A DNA stretch of 64,000 nucleotides from Paraspadella gotoi. Taxonomy: Eukaryota; Animalia; Chaetognatha. Under the pieces are notes generated by a model. The model searched no databases, had not been told where the DNA came from, and saw only the letters and a program-made list of their open reading frames with translations. The translations under genes were made by a program, and so were the position numbers. Positions within the stretch are counted from its first letter, which is position 1; every line of letters begins with the position of its first letter. Below are positions 6,101 through 48,095 of this stretch, in pieces. The stretch is taken from positions 5,997,621 through 6,061,620 of the forward strand of contig CM119264.1 of assembly GCA_051294375.1 (NCBI GenBank). Direction: 5' to 3'.

Positions 6101-6852
6101 ATTTTTAAAAGCAGATTTAAATAGCTCATGAAAAGTTATCTACACAAAGTATAATTCTTTTTTTCAATATTTTGATGATAAGTGGGTTAAAATTGAGAAA
6201 AACCTTAAAAAAATTATCATCATCATCATCATCCGATGATTTTAGCAGTTTTTACTAATTTTTAGTAATAAAACATCAAAATTTTAAAAAGTTGTAATTA
6301 TATTTTTTGCTTAACTTTTTAAGCTCTATCAGAATCAATTAAAAAAACTTAAAATATAAAAAAAAAATTTTAACATTATATAGCAATATAATAATATTAA
6401 TTAGCGAATTACTCATGGTTCGGAACATTTTTGTAAAAAAATATTTTAACACAATAATTAATACCAATAATGGATTAGTTTAACTGCTGTTCCCATTAAA
6501 ATTTGAATTTGGTCGGCTACCGCTATCCATACTCATGGATATTTAATATCTATTTCCCCAAATTTCTTAACTTTTTTTGTTGCATCGTTGGTTGCAGAGA
6601 AAACCATGAGATAATCAACTAAATCTTTTGCTAATTTTACTATCCTTGTATTCACTCAACTTACCGAACATCCGGCTCCCTCTCGTGCAACTCGTCAGAA
6701 ACCCCATAGGTTGAAGTATCCGGTCTTGTCCAAGAGGATGTCAATGCAGTTGGGCCATCATAATTTGACGTCCGGGATTCACTTTTGATATTGACATGTT
6801 TGTTGCTCTTTTGTGAGTGGTCTTTTTTATTATGATTGGAAAACGCCTTCAG
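106..6852 (-). CDS. KDM4: KDM4/JMJD2-type PHD + extended-PHD protein, apparently lacking JmjN/JmjC (multi-exon; main exon 3013-5249)
   Basis: Main exon encodes SWAKRLSGLWQ...AEKNFN...PHCAVC, CRNCFLVVHASCY...WECDAC, CCLCALRGGPLKR...WVHSFC, CVTC...CERVFHPTCA, the PHD/Zn-knuckle/ePHD block typical of KDM4A-C. Candidate extra exons with AG/GT ends: 6665-6852, ~5540-5831, ~5320-5440, 229-279, 106-171 (stop). Phasing of the 5' exons is not fully resolved; ATG at ~5347 (MAKTPRPSQG) is an alternative start. Confidence 0.7.
383..2618. mobile_element. Non-autonomous TIR DNA transposon (~2.2 kb) in an intron of the KDM4-like gene
   Basis: 35-bp perfect inverted repeat ATATGACACAATGAAAAATAACGTGGCGTTACTGT at 383-417 and its reverse complement at 2584-2618; AT-rich interior with no ORF. 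Confidence 0.8.
5911..6525 (-). mobile_element. ~600-bp interspersed repeat family A, inverted copy
   Basis: Reverse complement of the copies at 22217-22800 and 32397-32995 (shared AGCGGTAGCC...AATGGGAACAGC start and GGAAGGTTCCCAAATCAAACTTCTGACCC...AAGTTTGGC end). Confidence 0.85.
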
Positions 6853-6894
6853 CTACAAAAAAGTTAATCATCACTGTAATAAGCGTCATAATGT

Positions 6895-7950
6895 TGATCA
6901 CTTATGAATAGGAACTAAAATAACCCAGACTACGCAAACTACTACGCGTTGACTTATCAAAGAAAATTACTAAAAAAATCTGAAAAAAAAGAATGATTGA
7001 TGTAATAATAATAGATTGATTGATTGATGTAATAGTAATTGATTGATGTAATAGTGATTGATTGATTGATGTAATAGTAATAGATTGATTGATGCGTTGA
7101 TAACCAATTATTTATGCGATGATAACCAAAGGATTGATGCGATGATAACCAAAGGATTGATGCGATGATAACCAAAGGATTGATGCGATGATAACCAAAT
7201 GATGGACGCGATGATAATCATTCAATGATGCGATGATAATCATTCATTGATGCGATGATAATCATTCATTGATGCGATGATAATCATTCATTGATGCGAT
7301 GATAATCATTCATTGATGCAATAATAATCCTTCATTGATTCAATGATAGTCATTCATTGATTCAATGATAGTCATTCATTGATTCAATGATAGTCATTCA
7401 TTGATTCAATGATAGTCATTCATTGATTCAATGATAGTCATTCATTGATTCAATGATAGTCATTCATTGATTCAATGATAGTCATTCATTGATTCAATGA
7501 TAGTCATTCATTGATTCAATGATAGTCATTCATTGATTCAATGATAGTCATTCATTGACGCGATGAGTCATTCATCGTAAATAAAACAAACAAATGCGTG
7601 AATTGATTGTGAAAGAAAGAGAGAAAGAGAGAGAAAAAAAAAATAGAGAGAAACTGGATATCCGCTGCAGAGATGAACTCGTTCTTAAACGAATCAGAAG
7701 AAGCTGCAACGGAAAAAAAGAGAGAGAGAGAGCGCGACAAATAATTAAAAGAGAAAAAAAGAGATGAAGATAAACTAGACAACAACTGGACACGGACAGC
7801 CCCTACAAATAAAACAAACAAACATATGAAACATAACAATTTAAAAGACCTCAATGATGAGAAGCCATATCAAAATTTTCAACTTCTTATGGTTACACAC
7901 TTGAGCTATTTCCAATGGTAAAACAGCGTGACGACTACGTCGACGGTCAA
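6895..7950 (+). mobile_element. Interspersed repeat family B carrying an internal ~22-bp tandem array
   Basis: Array of GATGCGATGATAATCATTCATT / GATTCAATGATAGTCATTCATT units (~7120-7570), then ATCCGCTGCAGAG.TGAACTCGTT and TATGGTTACACACTT...AGCGTGACGAC motifs shared with 25985-26615 and 16300-16440. Confidence 0.75.
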
Positions 7951-8779
7951 AGAAGCAGAAACGAATTAAAATCTCGCCCAAGTCGGGCTTTCGCCCGTCT
8001 GGCGAGAGAAAAACATTTGAAATGTAAATGGGACACACCAGCGAAAGATGACTCGGCCAGTACTCGCGGCCCAACTAATTATAAACTAGGAGTCTACGTC
8101 GTTCTTAGAGATCGAGGAAGACTTTTTCAATGGAGATTTTCTTTAAAATCTGACTACCAAACAATATAAACGCTCCTGGTAAAAATTCGGGTAAAATATC
8201 GATGTAAAACCACTTGATATCAAAACATCTTGATATCAAACAAGCCAGAACAAATAGACTGCTTCTGGACGGGAAAATTTTCTATCTCTGATTTTATATA
8301 GAAATGAAAGGGATTTTTTTCCTTGAAAACGATATAAACGTGACTGAGGTATGTTCCTGTTCAACAAATGACGTCTAATTTTGGAATCCTTTGGCAAAGT
8401 GTCTGAAGGGCTCTCAAAATTTTTCTTTACATTTTATTTGGTTATTTTGATATGATACGATCCTGGGAAAGTGAATTAGTCCATTTTGGTGAAATTTTTA
8501 TTTAAAGTAAAAGTAAAAGAGGAGCTAACGATCGGAATTCTAAGAGTTTTCAACCGGGAGTCAGATTCGGGAAAAATCTTCTATGGCGAAAATCTTCCAA
8601 AGAAGGGTTGATTTTCCGAAGATTTTGGTTAATATTTTCTATATTTATAGTCGGATTTTTTGGAAACTTAATATTAACAATATTGCCATCATTCTACCTT
8701 GGCCGGTATAAGAATATATTGAAAAAAACTCGGGCTTTTTTCATCAGAGCTTAGTCCTATATAAACATGTCACACCTGA

Positions 8780-8960
8780 TGAGAGAGTCGACCGATCCCG
8801 TGTCGAGGCTCCGCTCGTGAAGACCCTGATGCCGCGAGAAGGTTATAAACCGGCAGGGATTCGCGTCTCAGCGGTGAATCGTCCCGAGAGAGAAAGCGCG
8901 CGGAAGTGTGGGTCCCAACCGGCCTCGCCGTCATTCTCTTCGGCGATTCGCGCGTATTTA
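8780..8960 (-). promoter_or_regulatory. CpG-rich putative promoter/5' region of the KDM4-like gene
   Basis: GC/CpG-rich island in AT-rich background between the CDC73 stop and the first KDM4-like exons; position-based inference only. Confidence 0.35.
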
Positions 8961-9289
8961 AATATGTTGATTTGGAAGAGTCTCTGTTTTAAACTCATCG
9001 CTGGATGGAGATAAGACGGACCTTTTACAAATACCATTGTCCAATACGGTTTATATAAACGCATAAGAGGAAAAAGTTCATAAAGAAACCCCTTTATATT
9101 AATTATCAATTAAGAGTGCGCCGATAGCAATACGACAGAAAAAAAAACTTTTTATAGAAGACACGATTAAAAATTGTACAATTTCTGTAGCTTATTCGGC
9201 GAGCAAAAAGTAAGTTAGGCACTTTCATTGTGCAATCACCATTAAAATTAAAAGGAAACAACAATCTAACCAAACAGAACAAAAAAAAA

Positions 9290-10948
9290 TTAGAACCTCA
9301 GGTGAGATTTGTTTTTCACCATAAACTTATCGAGTTCCTCCCAAAAGGTGATGAGGACCGCCCTGTCCATGTGTCTTTTGTACTGATCTAGATTGATGAC
9401 GTGAACGTTCCACTTGCCGATATTGGCCTCGAGCCGTTGCTGAGCCCATTTGAGATGGAAGGCTTGGATTCTCACGAAGATTTCGACAGGGTTTCCGTCC
9501 CAAGGCCAGCCCTTGAATTGCCAAGCGGGCCCCTGGGCGAAGACGGCCACGACTCGGTCCCAGTCTTCAGTGGACAACTTGTTGGGGTTGTCGATGACCC
9601 GATAGGGAACAGTGGAGGAATCAGTCTTGCGCCTTTGAATAAGGACCTCGTTGTCTCTTCGTATTTGCGACGACTTTTTTTCTTCGGTGCTTACGAATTT
9701 CAAATCCTGCAGTAACTCTTTGACGTTATACATGGTGATCAGAGAGGTGGTGGCGGCGGGGATGATAACGATCGGAGTGCGACTGCCTTTTTTGTTCGGC
9801 GTCGCGCCCGACACGACTCGAGCGGCCGATGCGGGCTGGAGCGGGCGAGACACTGGTGGAGTTTTAGGGACGACGGGCTGAGGCGCCGGAGGAGCCGCGG
9901 GCGCAGGTTTTGCCGCATCCTGGGTCTTTCGGGCGACTCCCTCGGTTACGTCGCGCAGGGTCCGTCCGTGATACGTGCCCATGGTGTCGATGTTGAAGCC
10001 TTCCGATTCCGGATCGACGCCAAATCCCTCTTGCGCGTATCGATTGTAGGCGATCTGGGTCTGCGTTTTGTTGGCCGTCGCTACAGGAGCCGCAATGGCT
10101 GGCGTTGCGTTGGGCGGCTCTACAACTGGAGCGTTGGAGCGACCGGCAAGTCCATCTTCGCGAGCCTTGATGGAGCTGAGAATGGCAAAGACGTTTTTGG
10201 CGAAGTTTTTACCGGAGCTTTGGAGAATGGTTGCCCGAGTTCGCCAGAGTCGCTCCCTCGCTAAAATCTCCTTGGTCGTCTCCACCTCCGTGTCTAGGTA
10301 GGTGCGCTGCTCCAGGTTGCCGGCGCTGATGTCCCCGTCGACGGTAGGGATGGTCGTTCTCTTTTTCGCCCACCGTTTGGCCTTGATGGCGATGATACGT
10401 TCCACGGACATGGCCTCCACGAGGGAGGACTTGCCAGTGATCTGGTCCGTTGTCAGTGCACTCTCCTTGGGAGCATCCAGCTTGGAGGCGAGACGTTCCC
10501 GCTCTTTTTGCAGCTGCTCCTCCTCGATCCGGGGCTTTTTCGGCGGCTCCTTGGCAGCGATGTCGGCAACGCGCTTGATCTGGGTCGGTCGTTGCAGCGC
10601 GATCTCCAACGGGGCACTTTTGTCAATGGCTGCCGACGTGGCCGTCTCGCCTTTGAGATAGGCCAGAAGATCTTTCCGGTCAGGTCGTCGGACGACGGGC
10701 ACATTGGCTGAAGCCGCTTGTCGAACGTAGACCGGATGCGCCAAGTCAACATTTTTGAGGAAGTAGAGGATGCATTCCAGAGTGTAGTATTCTTTAGGGG
10801 CATTGTCTTTGCCAGTTCCCCAAACAACATAATTAGTCTTGACGTTCTTGGGCCAAACAAACTCCCCAAAATGGACTAATCCATCACGAATTTCGATGGG
10901 TTTTTTGTTAACATTAAACTGACGGACAAGACTTAGCACATCCGCCAT
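9290..10948 (-). CDS. CDC73: Parafibromin / Cdc73 (PAF1 complex subunit), 552 aa, intronless CDS
   Basis: [12 protein letters not shown] start, [69 protein letters not shown] and C-terminal KSHLRF match animal parafibromin; ATG at 10948 within ORF 9290-11020. Confidence 0.97.
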
Positions 10949-12165
10949 TATGAAATTATTAAGACTAAAACAACACAAAATTAATATTCCATATATGAGC
11001 TTGTGTAGGGGGCAAGCCAATCAAACAAACAAATGTACAATCACTAAATATTGAATAAAGAATAAATGAAACTTTATTAGTGGCATTGTGTATTGTTTGT
11101 TAATGTTTGTTAAAAGAGCATGAATTAGCAAGATACATTAGCTTGATACAATTTGAACATTTTGTACTTCTTTTAATCGTTGGCAACGCGGATGTCTCCC
11201 ATTTTAAATAAGCCAAAACGTTTTTTCCGGTCAGGACAATAACGGACTCTGCTTTGCGAACAGGCTGGATGCGTAAGGTCCTCATTTTCGAGGCTTCATG
11301 GCAACAGCCGGGATGCCTGTGATGCTCATTAGGTCGGGGCATCTCAATTAGCCGATTTTCAATTTCCTGCTTAAAAATATAGTTTTTTATAATTTTAACC
11401 TACTTAATTATATAATTTAATAATAAAAGATTTATATTTTCTTTTTTCTTAGAATTAAAAAAAAATTATATTTTAACATTATTTAAGGGTAGTACTATAT
11501 ACTATAAACTGGGCTACTATATAATATATATGTAAAAGAAGAAAAATAACTACAGATTAGTATTCAGTAATATGATTGTTTTCAAGATATAACTGCTAAA
11601 TTTTGATTCCAAACTTTCACTTCACCCTAATGCACATGATGGTTTCAAAATTTTTTTAAAAATGAAGAAACACAGTTTTTAGCCTTTTTTAGCCCAACAG
11701 GGGTCCAGCCCCATGGCCCTGTATCTCCTTTCAGGGGTCGAATATCAAAATTCGTCCCGATAGTTCCATTTATAACGTCATAAAATTCGATCAGGTAATT
11801 TTCTGGAAACCGATTCTGGTCACAAAAAGGCACGACCTCATTTTAGAATATGAAGCCTTCTGTAGAGGTACTAGAGGTAGCATTTCCAACGGTAGTATTC
11901 ATGAGGGGCATTGTTTTTGCTAGATCCATAAAACATAGTTGTTCTTGGGCAAACATCAAATGCTCCAGGAAGGAAATGAAGCTGAGAATTAATTAGAGTT
12001 GTGATATTAAAATACGGCACAAAGACAAGAGTTTTTTTTAAACAACAAAAGTAATCGGCATCAATAAAAAAAACATGTAAAAATAACTTTTATGTAATAA
12101 ACAATAAAATTTAGTCCCCGAAAATCCTGCAATATTCGTTCGTCTCTTTAGCAAGGGTTTGTCCC

Positions 12166-13941
12166 TTATTCGTCAACTTTGATCCGCTTGGGTTCCGGCG
12201 TGGACTCTGCGTTCCCGTTGGAGACGGTGGGAGCGGCCGAATTTGCGTCGACGGCGCCGTTTTTGACCTCGCCGTTTTTAACGTCGCCGCCCTCGCCGGA
12301 GGTACATGCCGTTTCTTGCGAAGAGACACCGTCTTCAGTTTTGCGCTTGCGCCGGACGAGCGACGAAATGTTGTTGACGCCTGATGTAGAGAGGGAGGGG
12401 GCGGCGAAAGAGGATGAAGAAGAGGATTCTTTGTTAAGGTTTCGGCGAACTGGAATTCTTTTGACTTCGTTCGAAGACGACGACCCGAAAGTGATTTTTT
12501 GTCCATCTTCTTCACGAGGAAATGGAAGGGTGAAGAAAGAATTTACGGATTTTTCGGTTGCGGTTTTGCTTGAGCTAGAATCCGAAGTCGACGGAGCCTC
12601 CATTGTAGTCGTCGACGGGGCGGCCGATGCTGCCGAAGACCCCGAAGACCCTGCTCCGACCGATTTAGATGGGCTGCGGTGAAGATTCTCGGAAGCCTCC
12701 TTGACGGCTTGCGAAGCTTCGGAGTGCTCGGCCTCCATGTCTCTCGCGTCTTCGAATTTAGCGCGAATTTCAGGGAGCAGACCCTTCAAATCTTTCGCCT
12801 CCTCATCGGCCTTACGAACGGCCTCGTCGGCCATCGCCTTTTCCCTCGAGCCCCCTGCCGTGGCTTTGGCGACGCGGACGATCTCCTCGCAATTACCCAC
12901 GCGCGTCTCCAACACCTTCAGGGCGTGGCGAAAGTTAAGGCGCGCCTCCGAGTAATTCTTGTCAAAAGAGTAAGTCAATCCGAGCTGATAGTAAGTCTCG
13001 GCGATGTAGCGGTCGTCCTCGGGCAGGTGGCGCCGCTGAATCTCCAGGCAGCGGTTGAAATCATCGATGGCTGCATCGTAGGCCTCGGTCTCAAGGCTGA
13101 TCTCGCCCAGGGTCATGAAACAGTCGGCTGCCTTCATCTGCCGCTCCTTCGATGACGAGTCCTTGAGAAAGACGAGTTTGGCCAGCTCTACCATCTCCCA
13201 AGCCAATTGCAGGTTGGAGACGTCGTCGTCTACCTCGTTTTCTTCTTCATCTTCATGATCTTGAGATCCGTTCGCCGTCTCTCCGGCCTCAGTTTCAGTT
13301 TTTCTCTTCTTCGGCGCCGGTCTTTTGCCTTTGTCCTTTACGTCGACACCGACTGACTCTTCTTCTTTAGCCGTCGCTTCCAAATCCTCAACTTCCTCCT
13401 TTTCTTCGTCCTCTCCCTCTTTATTTTCATTTTCTCCCTCTTCTTCATCCTCTCCCTCCTCTTCTTCATCCTCGTCCTCCTCGTCATCGTCCTCCACTCC
13501 CGCGGCGGACATTCCTAGTACCCCGTTCTCGGTTCTGGCCAGTTCCAGCAGGGCTTGTCCGTATTGGAGATAGGCGTCGCCGCACTGCGAGGCCATCTGT
13601 CCGTAGACTTCGTCCATGATACGGCACGCCTCTTGGTAGGCGTTAACGGCTGAGTAAACGTCCTTGACCAGGAGATGACGTTTTCCCTGCATCATGAGCA
13701 TGGCCGCCTCCTGTTGCCGTTTCTGAGGTGTGACGGCGTCTTTGGGTCCAGAGCGTGAACCCGATGGCTCGGGGCTTGCCGGCGCCGTGACCGCGGAAGG
13801 GACGCCCGAACCGCCGACCCCGTTCATCTCCAAGAGGGCGTCGATACCCGCGTCGTCCATGGGTGGCTCTTCTTCTTCGTCGAGGTCGTCGACAGTGCCG
13901 CCAGGAAGAGAGTCAACGTTTTCGTCCGAATCCTTGAACAT
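12166..13941 (-). CDS. NASP: NASP / N1-N2 histone chaperone (SHNi-TPR family)
   Basis: QGKRHLLVKD...YGQALLELARTENGVLG, acidic tract interrupting TPR2, VSNLQLAWEMVELAK, LGEISLETEAY, IAETYYQLGL, NISSLVRRKRK NLS. ATG at 13941; a 13-nt upstream exon (14258-14270, MLLD, phase 1, acceptor ~13966) could extend it in frame. Confidence 0.95.
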   Translation of the reverse strand: MFKDSDENVDSLPGGTVDDLDEEEEPPMDDAGIDALLEMNGVGGSGVPSAVTAPASPEPSGSRSGPKDAVTPQKRQQEAAMLMMQGKRHLLVKDVYSAVNAYQEACRIMDEVYGQMASQCGDAYLQYGQALLELARTENGVLGMSAAGVEDDDEEDEDEEEEGEDEEEGENENKEGEDEEKEEVEDLEATAKEEESVGVDVKDKGKRPAPKKRKTETEAGETANGSQDHEDEEENEVDDDVSNLQLAWEMVELAKLVFLKDSSSKERQMKAADCFMTLGEISLETEAYDAAIDDFNRCLEIQRRHLPEDDRYIAETYYQLGLTYSFDKNYSEARLNFRHALKVLETRVGNCEEIVRVAKATAGGSREKAMADEAVRKADEEAKDLKGLLPEIRAKFEDARDMEAEHSEASQAVKEASENLHRSPSKSVGAGSSGSSAASAAPSTTTMEAPSTSDSSSSKTATEKSVNSFFTLPFPREEDGQKITFGSSSSNEVKRIPVRRNLNKESSSSSSFAAPSLSTSGVNNISSLVRRKRKTEDGVSSQETACTSGEGGDVKNGEVKNGAVDANSAAPTVSNGNAESTPEPKRIKVDE

Positions 13942-14279
13942 TGCGAGGGACGCAATGCAATTCGCTAGATTATCGAAGAATGGCAACGAGTTTATTTTCA
14001 AGTTCGACGCATAAGATGACTCTCTATTCCGCGATATTTTGTTACTAAAAATTTATAAGAAGCAACAATAACATCTCAAGAGAAAATAATTAATTTAAAT
14101 TGTACACGTTCAAAAAACCCCTTCGACGAGACTCCGACGAATCGGAAACAGAAAAAAAAATTGTATGTTAACTTAAATTTTCGCCGTATAATCTTAATTA
14201 ATTGCAATTTTAGCAAAGGCGATAAAAAACAGGAGGAGAGAGTCTAGAAAGGACTACCGTCAAGGAGCATGGTCGGGAA

Positions 14280-17183: not shown

Positions 17184-20100
17184 TCAGAGGGCATCGAAAA
17201 TTATCGGCGCGGCGGCTGGGGCGGCGTGGGCGGGGGCGGCTGTGGAGGAGGAAGAGAGGAGGTGGTGCTGATGTTGGATCTGCTGCAGCGGCTGGAGCTG
17301 CGGCGGGGCCGATCGGCGGCTGCAGACGGAGGAGGTGCTAGTGCGACGAAGCGGGGAGGCGATGGGAGTGGAGCCGAGGGAGCCAGAGCCGAAGCGGCGG
17401 GAAGGGGACGACACCGGCGTAGACCTCAACGATCCTGGGCAAATAAAGGTGGAGGTGAGAGAGAGATTGCGATCGGGAGAAGTCAATAGCGAATTTCAAG
17501 AACCCTGGGAGCGAGAGCCAAAAAAAGGGAGTAGGAGTCGACAAATTTCGGTCGGATCATAATTTCCGAAATTCGAAGCCAGATTATGTAAATCGAGAGT
17601 CGCGTAGGAGTTTTTTAGTTGCGCCGAGAGTCCTCGTAGACAACTCTATAAGTCACTTTTTATTTTTAAATATTTATAATTCCAATAATAATAAATTTAT
17701 ATTTGTTAAAAAGTACAGCACAATAAAAATTTAATATATTAATGTTAAGAATCATACTGGTTAATAGTGGTTATATGATTACTTAAAAAATAATTTTAAG
17801 ACCAAAAATCCATTATAAAGTAGTTTATAAAAATATATAATCACTTTAGTTAAAACTTAACAGACTGATAAATTATCAATAAATGTTATATTATATATTT
17901 TATTTTTATATAATCATGTAACCATTTAAATTAAAAATAGGGTTAAATGATCAGAAAATCAAAATCAATTAAAATAATTATCTTTATTTTTATAATTACC
18001 TAATCATCGAAATAAACGTTCAATGAAAGAAAATTATCACGGCGCAACACCTTAAACTTGCCGGTTTTTTTTTTTTAATTTAAAAGTCTCAGTGAGGGTA
18101 AGTTAATCAATGATCCCAGAAAAGTAGGGGGAACCGAGGATAGGAATAAAAAAAACCGCAAAGCGGGAGTAGATTAGCGACAAATCTTCGACAATCTCCC
18201 AACCCCACTTCCGGCATCAGTAATATCGATTATCCAATCGCGAATAATCTCGCGTCGTCACCAGAAATATGAGCCGGCCGGAAATAAAAGTAATCAATCG
18301 CTCACTCTCCTGACTCACCTCTCCAAGTTATTTTTTCGGAGTTGAGAAACAAAGAAAAATCACTCACCCCCCTTCTGCGAGCCCGAATCGTCGCTCCCCG
18401 CAGCCACGTACGAAAATAAACACAGAACCGCATAGCAGATCTCATTGGCCTGAAAGAAAAAGTAAAAGTCGGTTTACAAAGTACTTTTAGACCTGTTTAA
18501 GGGACCTATTAGTAGTATTAGTAAGTAATAAATGATAATAAACCAAAATCGAGATAAACAGAAAATTAAACTGATGTTAAACTGAAAATGGACCGAATTG
18601 CGTCAAAGATTATAAATGGTCGCAACACCGATCAAGCATATTCTAAAACCCTGAAGGGGTGTGGGAAAGATACCTTGGCCGACGTCGTTGCAGATTTTTC
18701 CGCTCGGCAAGACGCCGTTCAATTTGAGTTTCTCTGACGAGGTGGAATCCCAATAAAAGTTTAATACGTGACACCTTAAACTAATCACTTTCAGTTACCT
18801 TCCATTTTAACCCGTAGAATATCGTCATCTTTATTAAAGCCAGATCCGTGAGGGCCCCCTTTAGGTTCTACCACATTAGAATTGAGGTCATTTTCGAAAC
18901 TGCTCTGGGATTCGCTCCCGACTGATTCTGAACTCGGGGTCTCCGCCCCACGGGAGGAAAACGATTGGCGTTTTCCCTTTGGTGCCAGAAGTTTTCTTTG
19001 CATTCGAACGGACATGACACGAATGTAATGCAACAAGATTTGGTCAGCCTGACGCGATAAATGAATCGGATATAAATAAAATTAACGAAACTTAATAAAA
19101 CGTAAAATGGAAACGAAAATAAGAGTGGCCAGGGATATTACACTACCATTTTAGACTTGAAGCGACGATGAATTACCACTTTAGTTCTTGGATCTGAAAA
19201 TAAAAGACAACATTCGATTTTTATCATTCATCATGTGATGTGTGAAATGGCAAGTTTGTGACAGGTTAATTGAATTTTTTCCCCGACCAAAAATAAACAT
19301 GCAAAATAAACCCAGTTGGGTGCATAAAAATTATCTAGACCTCAAACATCCAATATCTAGTTTTGATAAAAACGTTTCGAAAAAGGTAATTTTTTACAGC
19401 TAATTAGTTATCAAAGGCTAGATACGGATGAACGTGCAAAATGCAACAGCAACAATCCCAATGCCTTAACTCGGGCAATGAATGATGTACAAACTGTAAA
19501 AAATGTCATAAAAAATGCGTAATAGATTCTAGACTAACGAGTGAACAATAAATTTTTCATGCAATAAGTAAATACGCATAATCGTAAACATTTCTAATAT
19601 TAAAAGACAAATTAAAAGAATTTTATTAATTGATTGACAATTTTACTGCATGTTCGAATCAAAAAATAGAAACTTGAAAAAAAAAATCACTAGTAACCAA
19701 GAAACCCAATAAAAAAATACATCAAACAAATTTATTAACTACACTAGAAAGATGAACATGCAGAAAAACACCAAAAAAGCTCGGAATATAAGTTATAAAA
19801 AAGTTTTTTCTGACACATTTTTTATTTGATGCTTATTTTAACAAAAATAAGAGATACTATAAAAGTATCAGAGAAACATTTAAAATAAAGGCTTTAGCTT
19901 ACCAAATTCATCTAACACAAATATGCCTCCCTTGTTGGTTCCGCATTTCTTGATTCTATTCAGCTCAATAAAATACTTTTGGGAGGAATATAAACAGAAA
20001 AGAAAATCAAAAGAATTAGTTTTCTTTTTAGCAGTGATTCATATGAAAATAGAAATTTGTATCATGATTTGTAATAAATTTAAATACCTCCCCGGTTGAA

Positions 20101-23100
20101 AAGCCTTTAAAACAATTTATAGCAGAATATGGTTTTTAACCTTTCAACCAAAGAAAAGTCTTCTAATTCAAGCATAAATAAACTGTGCTGTTATCTATTG
20201 CACTGCAGAAAAATTGTGCATTAACTTTACATGCATCTTGAACGGTTCCTTGAAGTCATTACAAATCATGGTATACTATGCAATTTTTTTTTAGTTTTAA
20301 TAAATAAAATAAAAGGAAAATTTTGTGAAGGGTTGAAATAAACAGACGGTGATGATTAAGAAAATACCAGAAGAGAAATACACCTATAAAGAAATTGATG
20401 CTGTTGCAATGAAATAAAATTAAGTCGCCTAGCTTAGCAACAAAAAACACGAGACTTCGCCAAATACGACAGCACAATCAGACACACAAGTGTAGCTAAT
20501 CGTTCGGTAAAATAGATAAGAGGTTTCAAGTGCCGGGTTAGATATTTTAGCTTAGATGTACTTAAGAATTCATTTTTCACATTTTTCTATACTGACATGG
20601 GTTATATTTTCTATACTGACACGGGTTGAATAAATATCTCTTTCTGAAAATACAACTGGGTTACTCAAATTCGATTGACATACGTGTCAATTATTAAGCG
20701 ATGCAAGAGTTTCCTCATCAGATATACATCCTGACCATTTGAAACCCACCGCTATAAAAAATTTACCATACGAAAACGTATAATTATTTTAAAATTGTGA
20801 CAAAATATACATAGAAAAATAATATACAAAAACAAACAACAAAGAAAGGAAAGGAACAAATACGAGCTTTTAAATCAGAAATAAAAGGAAATTCGTCACC
20901 TTAAATTCATGGCTCTTTTAAGCAATCATGAACTCACGAATTTGTGCTAATATGGGTATCACAAGAAAGTCCATTAAAAATTGATTCAGGAATATCGATC
21001 ATAATTTCTTAAAAGTAATATACACAGTAATATACCTTGCCATTAACTATTCTTAAAACTAATATCTTTGTTATTTTCCTTTCGTTTCGCTGATATAAAG
21101 TTTAAATATAAAAAAATTCGATTTTCACAACGAATTTGTTTTAATAATGCAAACATGTTTCGAATAGTATTCCATTCTTCTTCATTATATAATTTTCTTA
21201 TGCTACAGAATCAAAAAATATATCATAGTATTCAATTTTTGTGGGCTTTCATGCAATATCAACGTTTATTTTTAAATTTTTCACTTTAAAATATTAGGCT
21301 ATTGAGAGGAGAGATCATTTTCCAAGCAATCCAAAATCTCTCATTGTTTAAATAAAAGTAAACCAAAGGACATGAGATTTTAAATTTATTAATAGAGATA
21401 AAACATATACATTTTATATGTATAAATATCGTCACGTTTTTGTTTTGTGAATTTTTTCTAGTGGCGGGTTTCGAATTGTCACATAGTATTAAACTACACC
21501 ATTTTTTTTTTTTTCGGTTTCCACGATTTTTGAAAACGAAATAAATAGCAATTAGCAAATATTATTGAGCATTAAAAGTTTCGGTCTTGGTATTTTACGG
21601 ACGCGTGCCAATTGAGGGAGTGTTTTTTCTTCGGAAGATAAGAAATATTACGTCATCCGTTTCGACTCTCTATAAAAGCGGAGTTAGAAGCTTAGATGGA
21701 AAGTCGATTTTAAACCACCGAAAACTTTTTACTCGAACGAGAAACTTCTCTATTTTTGAAAATAAACTTGATCTCAAAGCAATTTGAAGACATCTCAACC
21801 TAAAATGAAAATGAACCAAAGTGCAATACTTCTTGTTGTTTTCTCTATATATTTATTGATCTCAACTGTGACCGCAAATCCACTTAAAAACTCTAAGGAA
21901 AGTGAAATCTCTGTTCTTGGAAAAATAAAGAAGTATAAAACATCTCGAAGTGATTTTTTGAACCAAAAGTATATGGCAAATTACCTTCTGAAAAAATACA
22001 TACGCCCTTTTACATTAATGAAGACGAAGTTCAAAAACAAAATTCGACATTCCAGAAAGAAGAGAAATCTACTTACCGACCTAATTCAACCTCACTTAGA
22101 CCGGTAATTATATTTTGAAACCAAACCAAGGACACTAGGATGCAATAATAGAAAGTGACTGGGGAGTGGGCACCGTTCTGATTACAAAATTTAAAAAAAA
22201 AATAAAGTCACTATGCTAGCGGTAGCCAACCGAATTTAAATTTTAATGGGAACAGCATTAAACGAATCCATTATTGGTATTAGTTATTGTGTTAAAATAT
22301 TTTTTTGCGAAAATTTTCCTAACCATGAATAATTTGTTAATTAAAATATTATATTGCTATATAATGTCAAAATTTTTTGGTTGATATTTTAAGTTTTTTA
22401 ATTGATTCTGATAGAGCTTAAAAAGTTAAGCAAAAAATATAATTACAACTTTTTTAAATTTTGATGTTTTATTACTAAAATCATCGGATGATGATGATGA
22501 TGCTGATTTTTTAAGGTTTTTCCCAATTTTAACCCACTTATCATCAAAATATTGAAAAAAGAATTATACTTTGTATAGAAAACTTTTCATAAGCTATCTG
22601 AATCTGCTTTTAAAAATATTAAAACAATTTTTTTACAATTCCTATCTATAAATAGATATTAAAAAATTAATTACTAGTGCTTGGAGCCATTTTAGAAATT
22701 TTTGGTCAATTGAAAGTTTTCTCAAAAATTTATGAAGTTTCATTTGGGAAGGTTCCCAAATCAAACTTCTGACCCCCCTAATTGACAAAGTTTGGCTCTA
22801 AATATGCAATACTATACGATGAATGTTAATATATTTTATATAAATTTTTTTTTGTACATATTTTTTAAGAGTAAAAGTTAATTGTATAATACGTTTAAAA
22901 AGTCTGCACTCAAAAGGTTCTTATTTAAATTTTTTTTTACAAAAACTTTCAGTGTGATCTCCGAAGTGGGGGACAAAGACCAACTATCCGAAGTGGTCGC
23001 CACGGAAATATTTCAAGTGTTGAAACCGATAATAGAAGAAATGATTGCGGCTCAAACATCGCAATTAGAAAGTTTGACGGGGCCAGCGAAAACTCGAGCG

Positions 23101-26100
23101 GAACTCATAATAACAACTTTACAAGGATTGCTCGACGGCGGAACTGCTTTGTTACAACAACTTTTAGGCTAACTTTTTCGCGTGTGTGCTTTAGGTGTCA
23201 ATTTCATTTATTTATTCTTCATCACTCTGAAACACTACATCTCATGAATAAAAAATTCGAAACTCACGCCTAATTTAACTCTCAGTATTCAAAACAAAAG
23301 CCAGAATTTGATACAGATTGTTGGAGCGTAATTCTCGTCAACGGACATTAAAAACAGATTGTTTTCCCCTTTTATAAACTTAGTAAAGGAATGTTAGGGA
23401 AGAATAACGTTTTCACTTATGTGCGGTTTTTGAAGCATTTTAAAAATAATACAGGTGGTCACACGTACAATATATATTAAACGGACGTATTAGTGAAAAT
23501 GACTCACGTCTCATCTGGCTGCTCTTCTAGTAGCTTTTTCTTTCCTCACTGGGAGAGTTGTCTAACCAGCGAGCCTAAACGGTCGAAAGGACTCAAGTGC
23601 TTGGAATTTTCGCGAGCGGGTTCCGCCGTCGCGTTGTCCGGCTGGACAGTGGCGCCACGTTGAAGACGCGGGCGTAGCGCCGGCGACGAAGACACAGACT
23701 TGACTGTATCGGTAAGACCTTATTCGAGGTTTTAATTTAAAAGATATATTATGGGGCTGGTCAAAATTAAACTCAAATATGTCACATATTCTCGCAACCA
23801 CCTTTGGGCAAAGCTTGGGGGCCCAAGCTGGCCAAAAACGATGGCGGCAAGAAAACACCGTCGTTGTTATCTTTGATAACAAATTCTCTGACGACTTCAT
23901 CGATATCGCTGTCGTCCGTTTGTTTGGTGGGCGGGCTTTGCTGGGCCGGAGGTGCCGTCGACTCCGAGGAAACGGCCACGGGGGAGTGGACGGACGAGGA
24001 GACCGCCTCCGATGAGGGAGGCGGCTGGTCGTCGTCCAAAGATTCGCTCTACAAAATCAAGCGCGGGCGTAAATACACCGCCTGCTGATCCCCCCAGCCC
24101 ACAAGAAACCGCCCCTTTTAAAACATCCTATACCAAATTCTCTCTTGAGTAAAAAGTGCATCTGCGAACCTTCTGGTCGAGGCTTAAGGGACTGGAAACT
24201 GGATAGAGTTGGGCCTGAGGGTCCGAGGACTAACGCATCACGATGTGCATGGAGAACGAAGAGCGATAAAAAGAGGAAAATATATAGGGAAAGAAAACAA
24301 AGGAAATACGCTATTCTAATAAAGTTGTAAAAAACTTATTTCGAATCGTGGTCTAGCTAAAGTTTAGCTACTCTAACTTTATATATTTATAAGCGAGTTT
24401 TTTTTTTTTAAATACGGTCATTAAGAGTACCTCGGCGTTCTAAAGGATATCGATTAGGGGTGGTGAGGAAGGGAAATGGAGCCGAGATGACGCAGTGACG
24501 TACAAACAATCGACAATATATAGAGAGAATTAAGGCGAATTTCAATCGACGAACCGATCATAAAGAAATGGAATGCAAAGGAAAAAAGAAAAAGAGCAAC
24601 GAGGTAAAAAAATGAACACATTGAACATTTAGAAATAAGAAATAAAATAATAATGATAAATGTAGAAAGCTATCGAATGAGTTTTGTCTTCGAGAAGGAC
24701 GAAGAAAAAACCCATCGAGTTCGAGTTCTAATGGATCACAAGTCAACAGGATGATAAAAAAAAAAAAAAAAAAAAACACAGATACAATCGATGTATCGGT
24801 TTAGGTTCACATTGTCATCGAGTTTTCTTTCTCACTTAAATTCATTTTACAGAAATTTTGGGGTTTAACGGCTTCAAATGTGAACCAGAAAGTAGGATAA
24901 GACTAGTTTCATAATTACCTTGCTGTTGGCAAAGAGGAGCCCAATTCCTTCCAGACAAACTTGCAAAAGTCCTCCCTCTCCGGTTTTCATATCCTCGACC
25001 GGAAATTCCCCTCCAAGTTCGGGTCCTGCTCCAGCCAAAATCACGGGGATAAATAAAAACAATCATCAGTCGCTTGTCTCTTAATATCAATTACAGTAAG
25101 ATGAACTTAGAACAAAAAACGGATCATAAATTTTTTTAAAACTAAGGAAGGAGAGAATCAGAAGCGCACCAGGAAGTTTTCCGTTCATTCTGGCGGCCGC
25201 CTTTTCCATCGCCTCTTTGATGGTAACGTAGAGTTCCCGACATTTTTTCGTGTAGAACTTGTTAAGCTGAGTATCTCCACCGGATCGGCGCCATAAACAA
25301 AGGACCTTTGTCTTGGGACAGAAAGTCATGTTGACCAAACGTTCGTACCTATGATCGAAGAGCCGAATAAAGGATAAAACTGAAAATCGATTAGTTGACA
25401 AATTCGAAAACAATCTTCCTCTAACTTACCACCACCTTTCCACGATGGCGCCATTGACGCTCCTTAGAATGATGCAGTCGTCGCAGACTTCCATGAACAG
25501 CATGTCGCCTGTGATAAAAAGATATGAAGATGGTAGTTCCCTAAGAGACATGATCATTCGAAGAAACCTTACCAGTGTTGTCAGTCCCCCAGTGAACGGT
25601 AAACGACTGTTTCTGCATCATCCGAGATTGCAGCGGCTGTAAATCTACGTCGTTGCCATGCTAGTGATAAATAACAATAATATAAATTTAAAATAAACTT
25701 ATTAAGCATGGAAAGTTTTTTTCCTATGAAATGAACAATATATTTTTAAAATTAACAAAATGTATAAATCTAACCAAATTGTTAATGGAGTCTAATAAAG
25801 CGTTGATTTCCTGCGAGAACTTGAGTCCAATGTGACATTTGCCAACCATTCTTCTCGATTTCTTTTTTATTTCCGTTTTGTCCACTCGCATCATTATCAT
25901 GAAGGCAATCATGTTGAAAAGCATGCTGAAACATGGCACAAAAACAAAGTAGGAATTAAAAGAAAATCCTAAAAGTATAGTGATCTCGCCAGACGTTACT
26001 ATCAAAAAAAATTAATGAAAAAATCCGGAAAAAAAACGAATGATTGATATAATAGTAATTGATTGATGTAATAATAATTGATTGATGTAATAATAATTGA

Positions 26101-30800: not shown

Positions 30801-33800
30801 ACTGGGGGACCATGAAATCTACTTGAACAGATACCCTAGCTAAAACTGAAAATTTAGCGATAGTGCGCACTACTTAACATGAAAATCAAGTGGTAAAATC
30901 AAGGAGATGCCTCAGTTATAAATACGACATAAAATCTATCACATGCAGAAAATAAAAATATGCTTTGAAAAATATGTCTGAAAATTCAAGAACTGAAATA
31001 ATCTTAGATCATATTCGCTAAGAATCTAAATTGCGTTGAATATAGAAGTAGTAAAAATGGACACGCCTGTTTCAGTGCTGGATGAAGGTGTAGACTGATC
31101 ACTGGATGAATTCGAGCTTAATTTTGCCCTATATGGCGATGAACTTCCAGCCGAAGTTGCAAACTAAAAAGAGAGCAACGTTTAAATCTAGATATCTCTA
31201 AACATGAGAATAGATCTCATAGTAACCTGTTCATTTCCTCTGCTTAAATGATCTTGAAAAGCTTGGCTCTCCTGCAATCGGAGAAAATAGTAGTAAACTC
31301 TCAATATTGAATAACTACTAGATTTAACTAAACCTACGCCGTTTCTTTTTTATGTTTACCCGCGTTTGCGTTAAAGACTGGCCATTATAGCCTAGCTTGG
31401 TCCTCGTCAGTGGTTGAATGAAATGGAATGAGGATCCTATGGGACAATCAATTTTGGCCAAATTAAATGTTAATGACTAGCTTACGGATTATCTAATTTA
31501 ATCTAATTTAAGCTTTCAGTATAAAACTGCTTGCAAAACCCAATAAATTTACGTAAGTAAAAAATTATTATTTAAAACTTTGTCTGTATGTCTGCAGGCT
31601 CAAATATTAAAAATGCGAAGGTTAAAAAAAAATTGTTTTACAACAAAAGCTCAATTATGATAACTTACCACCAACTTCAAAAGGCATTTTTTTATTGGAA
31701 GCTGTTGAACATGGTTGACTGTCAAAAGAATTTCTTCCCGATTGAACGATAGAGCCTACATAATAATGTAAAAACGTAAAAATGTTAAGTTAAAAACAAA
31801 CGTTGTCAATTAATGGTAATTCTTATAAGATGGTTCTGGTTTTTTAACAAAATTTAATCGTAAATTGGGTAACCTTGTTTAAGATTGGGATGTGACTGTC
31901 CCCCGGGAATGTTCACTACGGCCGATCCTAGAGTATCTTGGCTTTTATAAATGGAAGAGTTCTGTAAATACCATTAATAGAGCAGACAATTTAATAGCGA
32001 TCTTGCCTATATAATCTCGAATAAGTTTATGAAAAATAAAAACTTGCATGTGAAAATGGACTCGAGATGCTCGCTATGGGATCTGAATCTCCACTTTGAG
32101 AAAGTCCCTTTGCAGCCAAGGCTACCGCCGTCGCCATGGTTGTCCCACCATCTCCCTAAGGAACGAGTTTCTTCTAAGCTCAAATTGAGCAATCGTTTTT
32201 CGAACCTTTTTACTACGATATCTTATTATTTTATATTTACCGTCGGCAGGGAACTACCAGACGAACGATCGGTGGACCAAAAATGAGTGTGAGAAATTTC
32301 CAGAACTTGAAATGCGGACGCCATACCGCCGGAACAATGTGTAAAGTAGGTATGCTCCAAACCCTGCATGGACGTTAAAAATATTTACTCTTCAGGGAGC
32401 GGTAGCCGACCAAATTTAAATTTTAATGGGAACAGCATTAAACGAATCCATTATTGGTATTGTGTTAAAATAATCTATTGCAAAAATGTTTCGAACCATG
32501 AGTAATTCGTTAATTAAAATTATTATATTGCTATATAATGACAATTTTTTTTATATTTTAAATTTTTTTAATTGATTCTGATAGAGCTCAAAAAGTTAAA
32601 CAAAAAATATAATTAAAACTTTTTAAAATTTTGATGTTTTATTACTGAAAATTGGTAAAAACTATTAAAATTATCGGATGATGATGATGAGGATTAATTT
32701 TTAAAGTTTTTTCAAATTTTGACCCACATATCATCAAAATATTTAAAAAAATTATACTTTGTGCAGACAACTTTTCATAAACTATCTGAATCTACTTATA
32801 AAACTAAAAAATTCTAAAAATTTTTTTTGACATTTCTCATCTATAAATAAATATTAAAAAATTAATTACTAGTGCTTCTCGCCATTTTAGAAATTTTTGG
32901 TCCATTGAAAGTTTTCTCAGAATTGTATGAAATTTCATTTGGGAAGGTTCCCAAATCAAACTTCTGACCCACCCCATTGACAAAGTTTGGCCCTACTTCA
33001 GGTTACTGTAAAACATTAAATAAAACATTCGAGCAACAATTAAATTTAGTTTTACCTGAATAATACTTTGCAACATTTTTAACGCCCCTTTGAAAATACT
33101 CTTCGAGATAAGGACGTCGTCGATGTGAAGAACGTCGTCGGACAGCTTCCGTTCCATATTGCGGTTGAGTCGAGAGACAGCGAAGTTACGATAGTTTTCG
33201 TCTTCCATCAGTTTTTTCACTCGCGGAAGTTTGAGCCACCCGATTCCTTGCCCCTCCAACACTCCATCGATCACTTCTTTGAGAAAATGTTGTTTTTCGC
33301 TGAAGAATAACAAAGAAACTCGGATACCCTACTGAATAGCAAACTTATCAAGTTAGATGACATTAAAAATACAAAAAGGGCAAAGATTCGGCCCCCTCAT
33401 AGCCCTCGTACCTATTCGACATGGTTCGATGCTCCAAGTGCTGCCTCTCGATGAGCTTCTGTCCCTTCCTCGCTTGCACGGCGGCTGCGTTGAAAGCCGC
33501 GTTTCTAACGTCTTGAATTCCGCCCGGAATGGCGGATGAGACGGGGTTTGAGCTGCTGGCTCCGCGTATCAGGGGAGATTCTATCTTTCGCGGCGCTCGA
33601 TTAGGGAATGGCGCAAATTGAGGTTTGAGCTTCTCACGAGCCGCGCGCGCCGAAGCTGGGAGGGACATGACGCCGCTCGATTTGGCGCTCGTTTTTGCGG
33701 AGCCTGGTAACGTTGAGGGCAGGAGAGTATGTGAAGGTGAGGTATCCGCATGGAAAAGACCGTAATGGAATAAAAGCCAGTTTTATACATAGTAGTAACA

Positions 33801-40974: not shown

Positions 40975-41749
40975 CTTGGATGACAAATATAATTGGCGCT
41001 GCCGAAAAGAGAATCTTCTAGGAGGAGGAGGTGGCTAATCAACGTGTACATGCAGGAGTCATACTTCGCCACTTATAGCTCTGAATCTGAAAAGAAATTC
41101 GCAGTATTATTAAACTACTAATAGAAATCTACTATGAAATTAAATTCAATAGTCTACTTTCAGGTAAAAAAAGAATTTTTAAAAAAGGTTCAATTTTAAT
41201 GCTATTAAAATTACAATATTACTATATAATGATAAAAAAATATTTTTTTGATGGATTCTGATAAAACATAAAAAGTTAAATAAAAAATATAACTACAACT
41301 TTCATAAATTCTTATGTTTTCTTGGTGAAAATTAAGAAAAAGTAATAAAATTATCGACAGATGATGATGATAATTATTAGTAGTTTTTTTTTTTTTTTCA
41401 CCTACTTATGTTATGATCAAAATATTGAGAAAAAAAATTATACTTTGTGTAGACGCACTTTTTGCAAGCTACCTGAATCTGATCTTAAATTAAATTAAAT
41501 TATTATATGGGGTATGGATTAATATTAAAATTTTTTGCTTAATTCAAATTTCTTAACCACTTTACTGAGTTAGGCTACCCCTACTACTAATACCATATTA
41601 GTTTCTTATCGCAGATTGATTAATATTTTTTTTCTCTCAATTGAGTTTTTATATTTTGAGACGATTTTTAAAAATTTACCACCATAGGGTTGTCGAATAT
41701 TGACAGCTGCCACAGCTGCACAATAACTTTCGAAAGACTCAACAATTTC

Positions 41750-46400: not shown

Positions 46401-48053
46401 ATGGATTATTTGTTTAGGGTTTCGGTAAGGGATAAGGTTAAATTAGGAGATTAGGGTTAGGGATTAAGGTCTTTCCCTAAGCTACTTTTACAATAAAAAA
46501 TTTTTGGCTTGCTGGGTGACTTATCAGTCGGGATCGAGATCGACAGAAACGATGACGATAGTTTGAACGATTGAGGAAGCAGTTGCGACGACGAAGGGAG
46601 TAACGCATAAAGCGACAATGGAAGCAGCAAAAAAGAAGTTTTGTGCGCTCCTAGAGCCGCAGCAAGGGGGCATCGAAGGAAAAAAGTGCCGAAAAAGAAA
46701 CTTTCGGTATAAATTTGGTTAATCCATAGCTATCCGTTACTAAGCAGTATTTTTTAAAAGTAACTACTCAGTTACAACCATTGTAAAGTCCTGACGACCA
46801 CTTATTATTCAATAAGTACTCAAACAAAATGTCATGGCAGAAAAATATTAAGGTATTTTTAACCTTTTAGGTGCTGTCGCTCAGGAATAACTGGACCAAT
46901 TTTTTTTAATATTGATATATATGGATTCCTTTTTCAAAAGTCTTTATATCCTATTCACAATTTTTTCAAAAAACATAAATACTATGCCCATAAATTAAGG
47001 CTAAAAAATAATTTTGGTTTTTTGAAGCGACTCAAATGATGAATATTTTGGGAGCTATAATTCTCGAATGCTTGGACTAATTTTTTAAAAACTTATTCAT
47101 ATTTATTTCTCATTTCTAAAGCTATATTTATCATTCATAATTTTTTATAATATGTGCGTAAAACGAGCGCAACTTAAGTATCCTTTTTTTTGCACAGGAC
47201 TGTAGTTGTCCTACTTTTGCTATTACTAATATTAATTTAATTTATTATTCCCGTCTGTTTTGATTTCAAAAACATCAATATTTATGAGTGTAGATTGATT
47301 TTTTCTGTAAAAGTGATAAATATTTAATATTTGGACATAACTGAACAAATAAGGAGATTCAGAAAATATGAAGCCGTTATTGAATTTAATTTAAATTTTA
47401 AGGTTCAACAAAAAGTTACCGGCATGATTGGATTTCTCAATGAATTCTATCGGCCATTCAATATAAAATTTTTGATTATTCACGTGGAATATCAATTTGA
47501 TGTCTGTGGAAATAACCCTACCGGTGTTGCCAAGAAAGACGTTATAACTTATCTAAATTGTGTGAAAAAATACCGAGCAGATCAAATTTGTGCAGAGCCA
47601 AATGGTAAGCTTTAAGTATAAAAATTTCATGAGTCTCGCGTCATGACTATATTATAGTACATAATGATTAGATTAGATTAGGAGGCCTGCATATTTCTCC
47701 AACGATCCTTGTAAAAACATTATTATAGGACCGATGAAACGGTCCGACCACACGCTCGCATTGACTGGTCTTTCCTTTTGCGACGATAACACCTGCATTA
47801 AAGGCGTCGCCAAACTGTACACTATTTGCAGCTGGGAAAACTCGGTAAGTCTTTCTAGTGCTGGAAAAAAGGCGGCGTTGTGGGAGTCAGGGTTAACTCT
47901 CGCCCACGAGCTGGGTCACAGCTTCGGCGCCAATCACGACTGGGGCATCAAATCTAAATCTATCAAGACTTTGCTCAATAAAGCTGGAAACCGGCCGGCC
48001 AAGTGCTCCTGTAAACAACCTGATGGATCCATCGCCTCTGGAGAAACGAAGAG

Positions 48054-48095
<42 letters not shown>

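What the first reader, a model, noticed from the sequence alone, without database searches (positions are those of the whole stretch)
21805..23172. Orphan secreted prepro-peptide gene nested antisense inside MADD
Seen: two ORFs that the track lists separately join through a phase-2 GT-AG intron into 172 aa: signal peptide, ~60-aa strongly basic segment, RKKR, then an 85-aa cysteine-free, acidic/hydrophobic segment ([18 protein letters not shown]...[18 protein letters not shown]) with helical periodicity and a terminal Gly; own TATA box and AATAAA. Established: R-x-K/R-R is the furin consensus and a C-terminal Gly is the PAM amidation donor. Inference: a processed, amidated amphipathic helical bundle (toxin, antimicrobial, lipid-binding or hormone-like). 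The charge layout (basic pro, acidic mature) is the reverse of typical antimicrobial precursors, so either half could be the active one. I recognise no family. It sits inside the gene for the Rab3/Rab27 GEF that drives regulated secretion.
Basis: partly seen in the sequence, partly recalled or inferred. Interest (0 to 1): 0.8.

Follow-up and report, generated by a model that had tools for sequence, protein, structure and literature searches.

The report
Orphan secreted precursor inside MADD intron
A two-exon gene lying backwards inside an intron of the MADD gene, in what is likely an arrow worm, encodes a predicted secreted precursor with no family match; its few unnamed relatives keep the same predicted cutting site and the next 16 residues unchanged, so cutting likely releases an 85-residue helical protein whose new front end likely binds a conserved partner.

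Summary
The gene is real. The 21805-22103 / 22953-23172 join gives 172 aa in frame and lies antisense between two exons that split MADD's PH-like domain. A search of 1.84 billion proteins found one true relative, P0001 (E 8e-10). Four of its six cluster members read straight across the predicted junction; two stop exactly at the exon-1 end, which indicates the same intron. No RNA of this species was seen.

The basic pro-segment is unalignable, whereas RHSRKKR plus the next 16 residues are invariant and the 85-aa tail keeps its length, hydrophobic pattern and terminal LLG. The C-terminal half is therefore the likely product. No family was found. A weak histone H4 likeness fell to E 2.9 with a correctly registered profile.

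Best reading (0.35): a furin-activated secreted ligand whose invariant N-terminal helix binds a conserved partner. Membrane-active, structural or gamete, and lipid-binding roles remain rivals. The host is probably a chaetognath, a phylum rich in orphan genes. No earlier scan note on this family was found.

The parts
21671..21677 (+). TATA-like box (TATAAAA), 134 nt upstream of the ATG
   Evidence: sequence; function inferred
21805..22103 (+). Coding exon 1 (299 nt): signal peptide, basic pro-segment, furin-type site, first 13 residues of the predicted mature protein
   Evidence: relatives P0003/P0004 end at the same residue
21805..21876 (+). Predicted signal peptide, residues 1-24 (V at -3, A at -1, Pro at +2; the relative has V, S and Pro at the same places)
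   Evidence: hydropathy maximum 2.24 over 19 residues; alignment; no SignalP run
21877..22044 (+). Basic pro-segment, residues 25-80; sequence and length not conserved (56 vs 74 aa), charge kept (net +17 vs +12 including the cleavage motif)
22045..22065 (+). RHSRKKR, furin-type site, identical in all relatives whose sequence was seen
22066..22103 (+). Start of the predicted mature protein; with the first three codons of exon 2 it forms a 16-residue invariant amphipathic stretch
   Evidence: 16 of 16 identical; 8 of 8 polar positions
22104..22952 (+). GT-AG phase-2 intron, 849 nt, GC 0.25
22217..22806 (.). High-copy interspersed repeat inside the intron
   Evidence: copies at 5905-6525 (87%) and 32398-32995 (84%); summed contig depth in the thousands against 5-10 on the flanks
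22953..23172 (+). Coding exon 2: remaining 72 residues, predicted helical hairpin, terminal LLG and stop
23247..23252 (+). AATAAA, candidate polyadenylation signal
24919..25005 (-). Part of the host MADD exon on the upstream side (PH_MADD positions 1-41)
19903..19975 (-). Host MADD exon on the downstream side (PH_MADD positions 33-62); joins the previous exon in frame

Best explanation
The gene encodes a predicted secreted precursor that is likely cut by a furin-type enzyme after RKKR, releasing an 85-residue, cysteine-free, acidic, predicted helical protein whose invariant first 16 residues likely bind a conserved protein partner, as a hormone- or pheromone-like ligand would. The basic pro-segment would be a disposable spacer that may shield the acidic domain or aid sorting. 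The C-terminal Gly may be an amidation donor. Shown: gene structure, nesting, homology and the conservation pattern. Inferred: secretion, cleavage, amidation and the partner.
For: Junction and intron position conserved in a relative. Against P0001 the signal matches at 7 of 24 positions, the pro-segment is unalignable, the cleavage motif matches 7 of 7, mature residues 1-16 match 16 of 16 and residues 17-85 match 29 of 69. A run of 16 arises in 74 of 200,000 permutations of the 45 identities. Polar residues are kept 8 of 8 in the block against 6 of 31 in the rest (Fisher p 5e-5; the block was chosen after seeing the data), while the rest keeps hydrophobic/polar class at 59 of 69 positions and Gly/Pro at 7 of 8. 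So the tail behaves like a scaffold and the new N-terminus like a specific contact surface. Same mature length (85) and LLG end in window, P0001 and P0008. AlphaFold2 on exon 2 alone: two helices, mean pLDDT 90. No paralog in the 64-kb window. The pattern is the reverse of the conserved-pro, variable-mature layout typical of toxin and antimicrobial multigene families (recalled).
Against: Only two independent sequence types were compared, and whether P0001 is an ortholog or a paralog is unknown. No expression, tissue, receptor or activity data. An invariant amphipathic helix fits membrane insertion or self-assembly equally well (bindin's conserved B18 core is membrane-fusing; PMC13672419, passages). 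The block straddles a splice site inside MADD's alternatively used 3' region, so DNA- or RNA-level constraint cannot be excluded without the relatives' DNA. No peptide-hormone Pfam family matched the mature part. At 85 residues it is longer than most amidated neuropeptides (recalled).
Confidence: 0.35

Rival explanations
1. The mature 85-mer is a membrane-active effector (venom component, cytolysin or anionic antimicrobial): cleavage removes a basic shield and frees an N-terminal amphipathic helix that inserts into membranes.
For: Amphipathic helices with a Leu/Ile/Val face; protease-activated precursor layout; conserved terminal Gly; the likely host is a predator (recalled).
Against: Net charge -7 and -4, almost no aromatic residues, no 19-residue window hydrophobic enough to span a membrane (maximum 1.18); polar residues invariant; no tandem paralogs in the window.
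Confidence: 0.2
2. It is a structural, adhesive or gamete-surface protein that self-assembles or sticks after cleavage, in the manner of sea urchin bindin.
For: Bindin is cut at a conserved RKKR and has an invariant helical core with variable flanks (PMC13672419, passages); chaetognath-specific genes mark epidermal, spine and ciliary cell types (PMC12460157, section 7); predicted helical hairpin.
Against: No repeats or low-complexity segments; much smaller than bindin (238 aa mature); the invariant part is the N-terminus, not a central core; no sequence match to any such family.
Confidence: 0.18
3. It is a small exchangeable lipid-binding protein (apolipoprotein-like) that carries lipid in body fluid or eggs.
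For: Size, acidity, Pro/Gly-punctuated amphipathic helices with acidic residues mostly on the polar face.
Against: Basic residues are not consistently at the polar/non-polar boundary; an invariant polar N-terminus and a long basic pro-segment are not expected; no Pfam match.
Confidence: 0.12
4. The basic N-terminal segment is the active cationic antimicrobial peptide, diverging under selection, and the conserved acidic half is its neutralising chaperone.
For: Net +17 and +12, pI 10.7 and 11.7; fast divergence is typical of antimicrobial peptides (recalled).
Against: Not more amphipathic than shuffles (315 and 302 of 1000); different length and composition in the relative; predicted low-confidence or coil over much of its length; a chaperone would not need an invariant polar N-terminus.
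Confidence: 0.08
5. On origin rather than function: the mature domain descends from histone H4, with the H4 basic patch turned into the furin site and a signal peptide added.
For: H4 chains were the top PDB sequence hits for P0001 (best E 0.021) and for profile A1 (best E 0.0016); 16 of 52 aligned positions identical with one gap for P0001, 13 for the window model; 0 of 5000 and 8 of 5000 shuffles reach the pairwise scores; helix lengths in the P0001 model resemble alpha1 and alpha2 (low confidence).
Against: A1 had lost a column, which flattered the match; a correctly registered profile gives E 2.9 at the same database size. The best hits appear to be fungal-type H4; the most-deposited H4 entries score E 0.27-0.28. 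hhalign probability 12.9%. Window exon 2 has no PDB hit at E 10. The R-x6-D motif at loop 2/alpha3 is absent, a conserved Pro sits in the would-be alpha2, and no Pfam histone model matched. The shuffle tests were run on a target picked as best of 177,635.
Confidence: 0.08

Closest known systems
ECRG4/augurin precursor (PMC10088197, passages)
   Same: Small secreted precursor: leader (1-30), short N-terminal piece, putative furin-like site (68-71), 78-residue C-terminal product.
   Different: Vertebrate gene; no Pfam match of this protein to any such family; no second cleavage site here; ends in a conserved Gly.
Parathyroid hormone-type precursors (recalled)
   Same: Basic cleavage motif followed by a roughly 85-residue cysteine-free chain whose conserved N-terminal helix carries the activity.
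   Different: Much longer, strongly basic pro-segment; no family match in Pfam; no receptor known; resemblance is of logic only.
Sea urchin preprobindin (PMC13672419, passages)
   Same: Cut at a conserved RKKR; invariant helical element with more variable surroundings.
   Different: Bindin is 485 aa (238 mature) with a central core; here 172 aa with an invariant N-terminus; no sequence match; expression unknown.
Linear helical venom and antimicrobial prepropeptides (recalled)
   Same: Signal, pro-segment, basic cleavage site, cysteine-free amphipathic product, terminal Gly.
   Different: Charges reversed; pro-segment variable and mature N-terminus invariant; no tandem paralog in the window.
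Histone H4
   Same: Weak sequence likeness over the basic patch, alpha1, loop 1 and alpha2.
   Different: Not significant after correct registration (E 2.9); acidic; alpha3 motif absent; signal peptide present.

Membership tests
Furin-processed secreted pro-protein (class) | N-terminal signal peptide | tested here: met
   Hydrophobic core and -3/-1 pattern in window and P0001; heuristic only, no SignalP
Furin-processed secreted pro-protein (class) | R-X-K/R-R site between pro-segment and product | tested here: met
   RKKR in window, P0001, P0003-P0008
Furin-processed secreted pro-protein (class) | Actual cleavage and secretion | not testable with these tools
   Needs peptidomics or in vitro cleavage
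Amidated peptide precursor | C-terminal Gly donor | tested here: met
   LLG at the end of window model, P0001, P0005-P0008
Amidated peptide precursor | Amide observed on the product | not testable with these tools
   Needs mass spectrometry
Nested antisense gene in MADD | Host coding exons on both sides, opposite strand, joinable in frame | tested here: met
   PH_MADD 1-41 and 33-62 exons flank the gene and join without stops
Calcitonin/CGRP/IAPP (PF00214) | Pfam gathering score and the N-terminal disulfide ring of the mature peptide | tested here: not met
   13 bits against 22.3, over signal and pro only; no Cys in the mature part
Augurin, PTH, CRF/ELH and other peptide-hormone families | Match to the family profile | tested here: not met
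   No such Pfam-A model listed for P0001, P0008, the 85-mer or exon 2 at E 10; HMMER filters hide weak matches
Saposin-like proteins | Six conserved cysteines | tested here: not met
   No Cys in any mature sequence; Foldseek rows for open saposins had E above 1
Histone fold (H4-like) | Significant profile match | tested here: not met
   E 2.9 with registered profile; hhalign 12.9%; no Pfam histone model
Histone fold (H4-like) | R-x6-D salt-bridge motif at loop 2/alpha3 | tested here: not met
   Present in the H4 of L008, absent at that place in window, P0001, P0008
Histone fold (H4-like) | Three-helix handshake fold | tested here: inconclusive
   Models built without a deep alignment; exon-2 model lacks helix 1, full model pLDDT 48.7
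Linear cationic antimicrobial/venom peptide precursors | Cationic amphipathic mature peptide after an acidic pro-segment | tested here: not met
   Pro net +17/+12, mature net -7/-4

The most novel reading that the evidence does not exclude
A histone H4 gene copy was converted in arrow worms into a secreted pro-protein: it gained a signal peptide and an intron, its basic patch became a furin site, and the released, now acidic histone-fold remnant acts outside the cell.
Probability: 0.08. Interest if true: 0.8.

Novelty: new member of a known kind. Interest (0 to 1): 0.36.

Why it matters
It defines a small, apparently undescribed family of processed secreted proteins in a poorly studied animal lineage and points to the exact 16 residues likely to carry the activity, which makes synthesis and assay straightforward. 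If it is a hormone, pheromone or toxin it would be an early molecular handle on chaetognath secretion, for which my searches found no protein toxin or neuropeptide-precursor study (listings only). The kind of gene is ordinary: furin-cut precursors and nested antisense genes are common (recalled), and chaetognaths are reported to carry up to 2,250 phylum-specific families (PMC12460157, section 7). That keeps the score moderate.

Tried and rejected
Expression: no RNA holder listed. Run X1 (RNA is a guess) gave contigs running unspliced from exon 1 into the intron and from the intron into exon 2, with no joint at 22103/22953; X2 and X3 laid nothing. It looks like genomic DNA and says nothing on expression. 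A wider lay to test whether X1 is RNA gave no result, so that stays open. No whole genome is held, so copy number outside the window is unknown. Word-index search with exon 1: 0 of 4 candidates scored (length-limited). DNA loci of relatives: none confirmed in metagenome contigs (0 of 201 and 0 of 593 pattern matches), viral contigs (0 of 14) or prokaryote genomes (0 of 123), so synteny and dN/dS are untested. P0002 (E 1e-6) rejected: a 760-aa tandem-repeat protein scoring by six summed stretches, without signal or cleavage site. ESM Atlas: no usable hit for exon 2 or P0001, which shows neither absence nor novelty. Fold searches: Foldseek no match at E 0.001 for either model (best E 0.92 and 1.4); VIA-align best Z 9.0 (rmsd 2.1, 72 aligned) and 7.9 (rmsd 3.6, 66 aligned), a flat list of generic hairpins; no family is excluded by this. 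Homodimer prediction of the P0001 mature domain: no answer, score 0.00. Pfam weak rows (Phasin_2 E 0.03-0.08, DUF2520, Calc_CGRP_IAPP) are below cut-off. Rfam: 0 matches in 19900-25000. The idea that presence in JGI assemblies implies high expression was dropped: the close Cdc73 relatives are in JGI too. IQ-TREE run did not finish; FastTree was used. Text search for the mature N-terminal 13 residues: 0 papers. Supplements of PMC12460157 were not read and bioRxiv supplements are closed; they may list this family among chaetognath-specific or cell-type marker genes.
Full report
Observation. The model is as described. Exon 1 runs 21805-22103 and exon 2 22953-23172, separated by an 849-nt GT-AG phase-2 intron, and the product is 172 aa with one terminal stop. 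TATAAAA lies at 21671 and AATAAA at 23247. Residues 25-87 are strongly basic (20 K+R, 3 D+E); the 85 residues after RKKR are acidic (5 K+R, 12 D+E), cysteine-free and end in Gly. The signal peptide rests on hydropathy and cleavage-site pattern only.

Host gene. Minus-strand exons match uDENN and DENN at 38.6-40.7 kb. PH_MADD positions 1-41 lie at 24877-25062 and positions 33-62 at 19883-19990, and the two exons join in frame. The gene therefore sits antisense in an intron that splits MADD's C-terminal PH-like domain. The same intron holds a candidate alternative MADD 3' end (24048-23802 and 23703-23546, in frame with a single stop) pointing toward the nested gene, with a minus-strand AATAAA at 23207 inside its likely 3' UTR. 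This isoform is inferred, not shown.

Relatives. phmmer with exon 2 against 1,835,955,588 representatives gave 2 hits at E 0.001 or better. P0002 is a repeat artefact. P0001 (191 aa, E 8e-10, 44%) has a hydrophobic N-terminus, a basic middle, RHSRKKR and an 85-aa tail ending LLG. Its cluster has 6 unnamed members on contigs of 0.9-1.5 kb: 4 are full length and continuous across the predicted junction, and 2 stop at exactly the last exon-1 residue, as the window's own unspliced exon 1 does because the donor creates a stop. The simplest reading is spliced transcripts plus unspliced copies with the same intron; the contigs themselves could not be fetched. A search with P0001 added only P0008 (94% identical; 2 of 187 candidates). 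No DNA loci were recovered.

Organism. The window's Cdc73 is 54-62% identical to named arthropod, mollusc, annelid and deuterostome proteins and 75-81% to two unnamed ones. In a FastTree of 56 rows (the window plus 55 of the 120 listed hits, picked for taxon spread) these three form a long-branched clade outside the sampled arthropods, deuterostomes and spiralians. An earlier unreviewed note on this genome calls it an arrow worm from nuclear ATP6. My tree fits that but holds no named chaetognath, so the assignment is likely, not shown. Whether P0001 comes from the species behind those Cdc73 hits is unknown.

Which half matters. Against P0001 the signal matches at 7 of 24 positions; the pro-segment differs in length (56 vs 74) and aligns no better than shuffles (1007 of 2000); the cleavage motif and next 16 residues are identical; the remaining 69 match at 29. 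In the invariant block 8 of 8 polar residues are kept, against 6 of 31 further on, where hydrophobic class (59 of 69) and Gly/Pro (7 of 8) are what persist. A run of 16 occurs in 74 of 200,000 permutations. The mature part is amphipathic in P0001 (0 of 1000 shuffles) and borderline in window exon 2 (58 of 1000); neither pro-segment is. AlphaFold2 gives exon 2 a two-helix hairpin at pLDDT 90 from a single sequence and P0001 three mature helices at low confidence (mean 48.7). The C-terminal half is the likely product and its new N-terminus the likely functional surface. The caveat is that this rests on two independent sequence types and that nucleotide-level constraint near the splice site is not excluded.

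Mechanism. Most likely the precursor enters the secretory pathway, a furin-type convertase cuts after RKKR, and the freed N-terminal helix binds a conserved partner while the rest forms an amphipathic scaffold, possibly amidated (0.35). Invariant polar residues favour a specific contact over plain lipid insertion. Rivals are a membrane-active effector (0.2), a structural or gamete protein (0.18), a lipid carrier (0.12) and an active cationic pro-segment (0.08). None was tested functionally.

Histone H4 lead. H4 chains topped the PDB sequence searches with P0001 (E 0.021) and profile A1 (E 0.0016), aligning the furin motif with the H4 basic patch. Pairwise shuffles against an H4 from locus L008 looked strong (0 of 5000 for P0001, 8 of 5000 for the window model), but the target had been picked as best of 177,635. 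A1 had dropped a column; a correctly registered three-sequence profile scored 11.3 bits, E 2.9 (above all 300 column shuffles, not significant at database scale). The mature part alone gave E 0.44 or worse, behind designed armadillo repeats; window exon 2 gave no hit; hhalign gave 12.9%; the alpha3 R-x6-D motif is missing. After the invariant block, H4-identical positions were kept in the window more often (7 of 11 vs 4 of 18, p 0.048), but over all 52 columns they were not (p 0.53). I keep this at 0.08.

Comparison with what is known. No Pfam family matched. Architectural analogues are ECRG4/augurin (PMC10088197, passages), preprobindin (PMC13672419, passages) and PTH-type precursors (recalled); none passes a membership test. 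PMC12460157 (passages and section 7) reports up to 2,250 chaetognath-specific families, many of them cell-type markers, so an unnamed secreted gene is expected there; its main text has no occurrence of 'secret', 'venom', 'toxin' or 'neuropeptide'. The Spadella atlas preprint 10.1101/2025.01.31.635879 (12 of 19 passages) showed nothing resembling this protein. Searches for the motif, chaetognath antimicrobial peptides (40), venom (41, 82), Spadella peptides (44), lineage-specific secreted genes (45), neuropeptides (54) and secreted H4-like proteins (77) were read as listings only and showed no description; subscription papers and supplements were not covered. Earlier scan notes held no look-alike by sequence, words or place.

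Verdict. A real, conserved, nested two-exon gene for a predicted furin-processed secreted protein of an undescribed small family. New member of a known kind; interest 0.36.

Noticed in passing
window 23546-24048 (-): Candidate alternative MADD terminal exons that would cut the PH-like domain short; in frame with one stop; a minus-strand AATAAA at 23207 would make its 3' UTR overlap that of the nested gene.
   Followed up: partly
window 18794-19056 and 18363-18456 (-): Two candidate alternative last exons for the long MADD form, both starting with a similar helix; only the distal one has a weak PH_MADD match (E 0.07).
   Followed up: partly
window 22217-22806; copies at 5905-6525, 32398-32995, weaker at 41244-41499: High-copy AT-rich repeat with a 17-bp hairpin near its end (22734-22769); Helitron-like end is a recalled resemblance.
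   Followed up: no
window 43459-53400 (+): ADAM-type gene (reprolysin M12B and disintegrin matches) divergent from the MADD 5' end; not nested.
   Followed up: no
window 2875-14052 (-): Closely spaced same-strand genes: SHNi-TPR (NASP-like) and Cdc73, each one long ORF, then a PHD-finger gene (KDM4-like, recalled); spacing would fit an operon, not tested.
   Followed up: no
window 21696-21713 (+): Short upstream ATG-initiated frame 25 nt after the TATA box, probably at or before the cap site.
   Followed up: no
L004, L006, L008: Histone H4 genes on contigs of the viral collection; L004's frame runs about 100 residues past the usual H4 end and L006's has an N-terminal extension.
   Followed up: no
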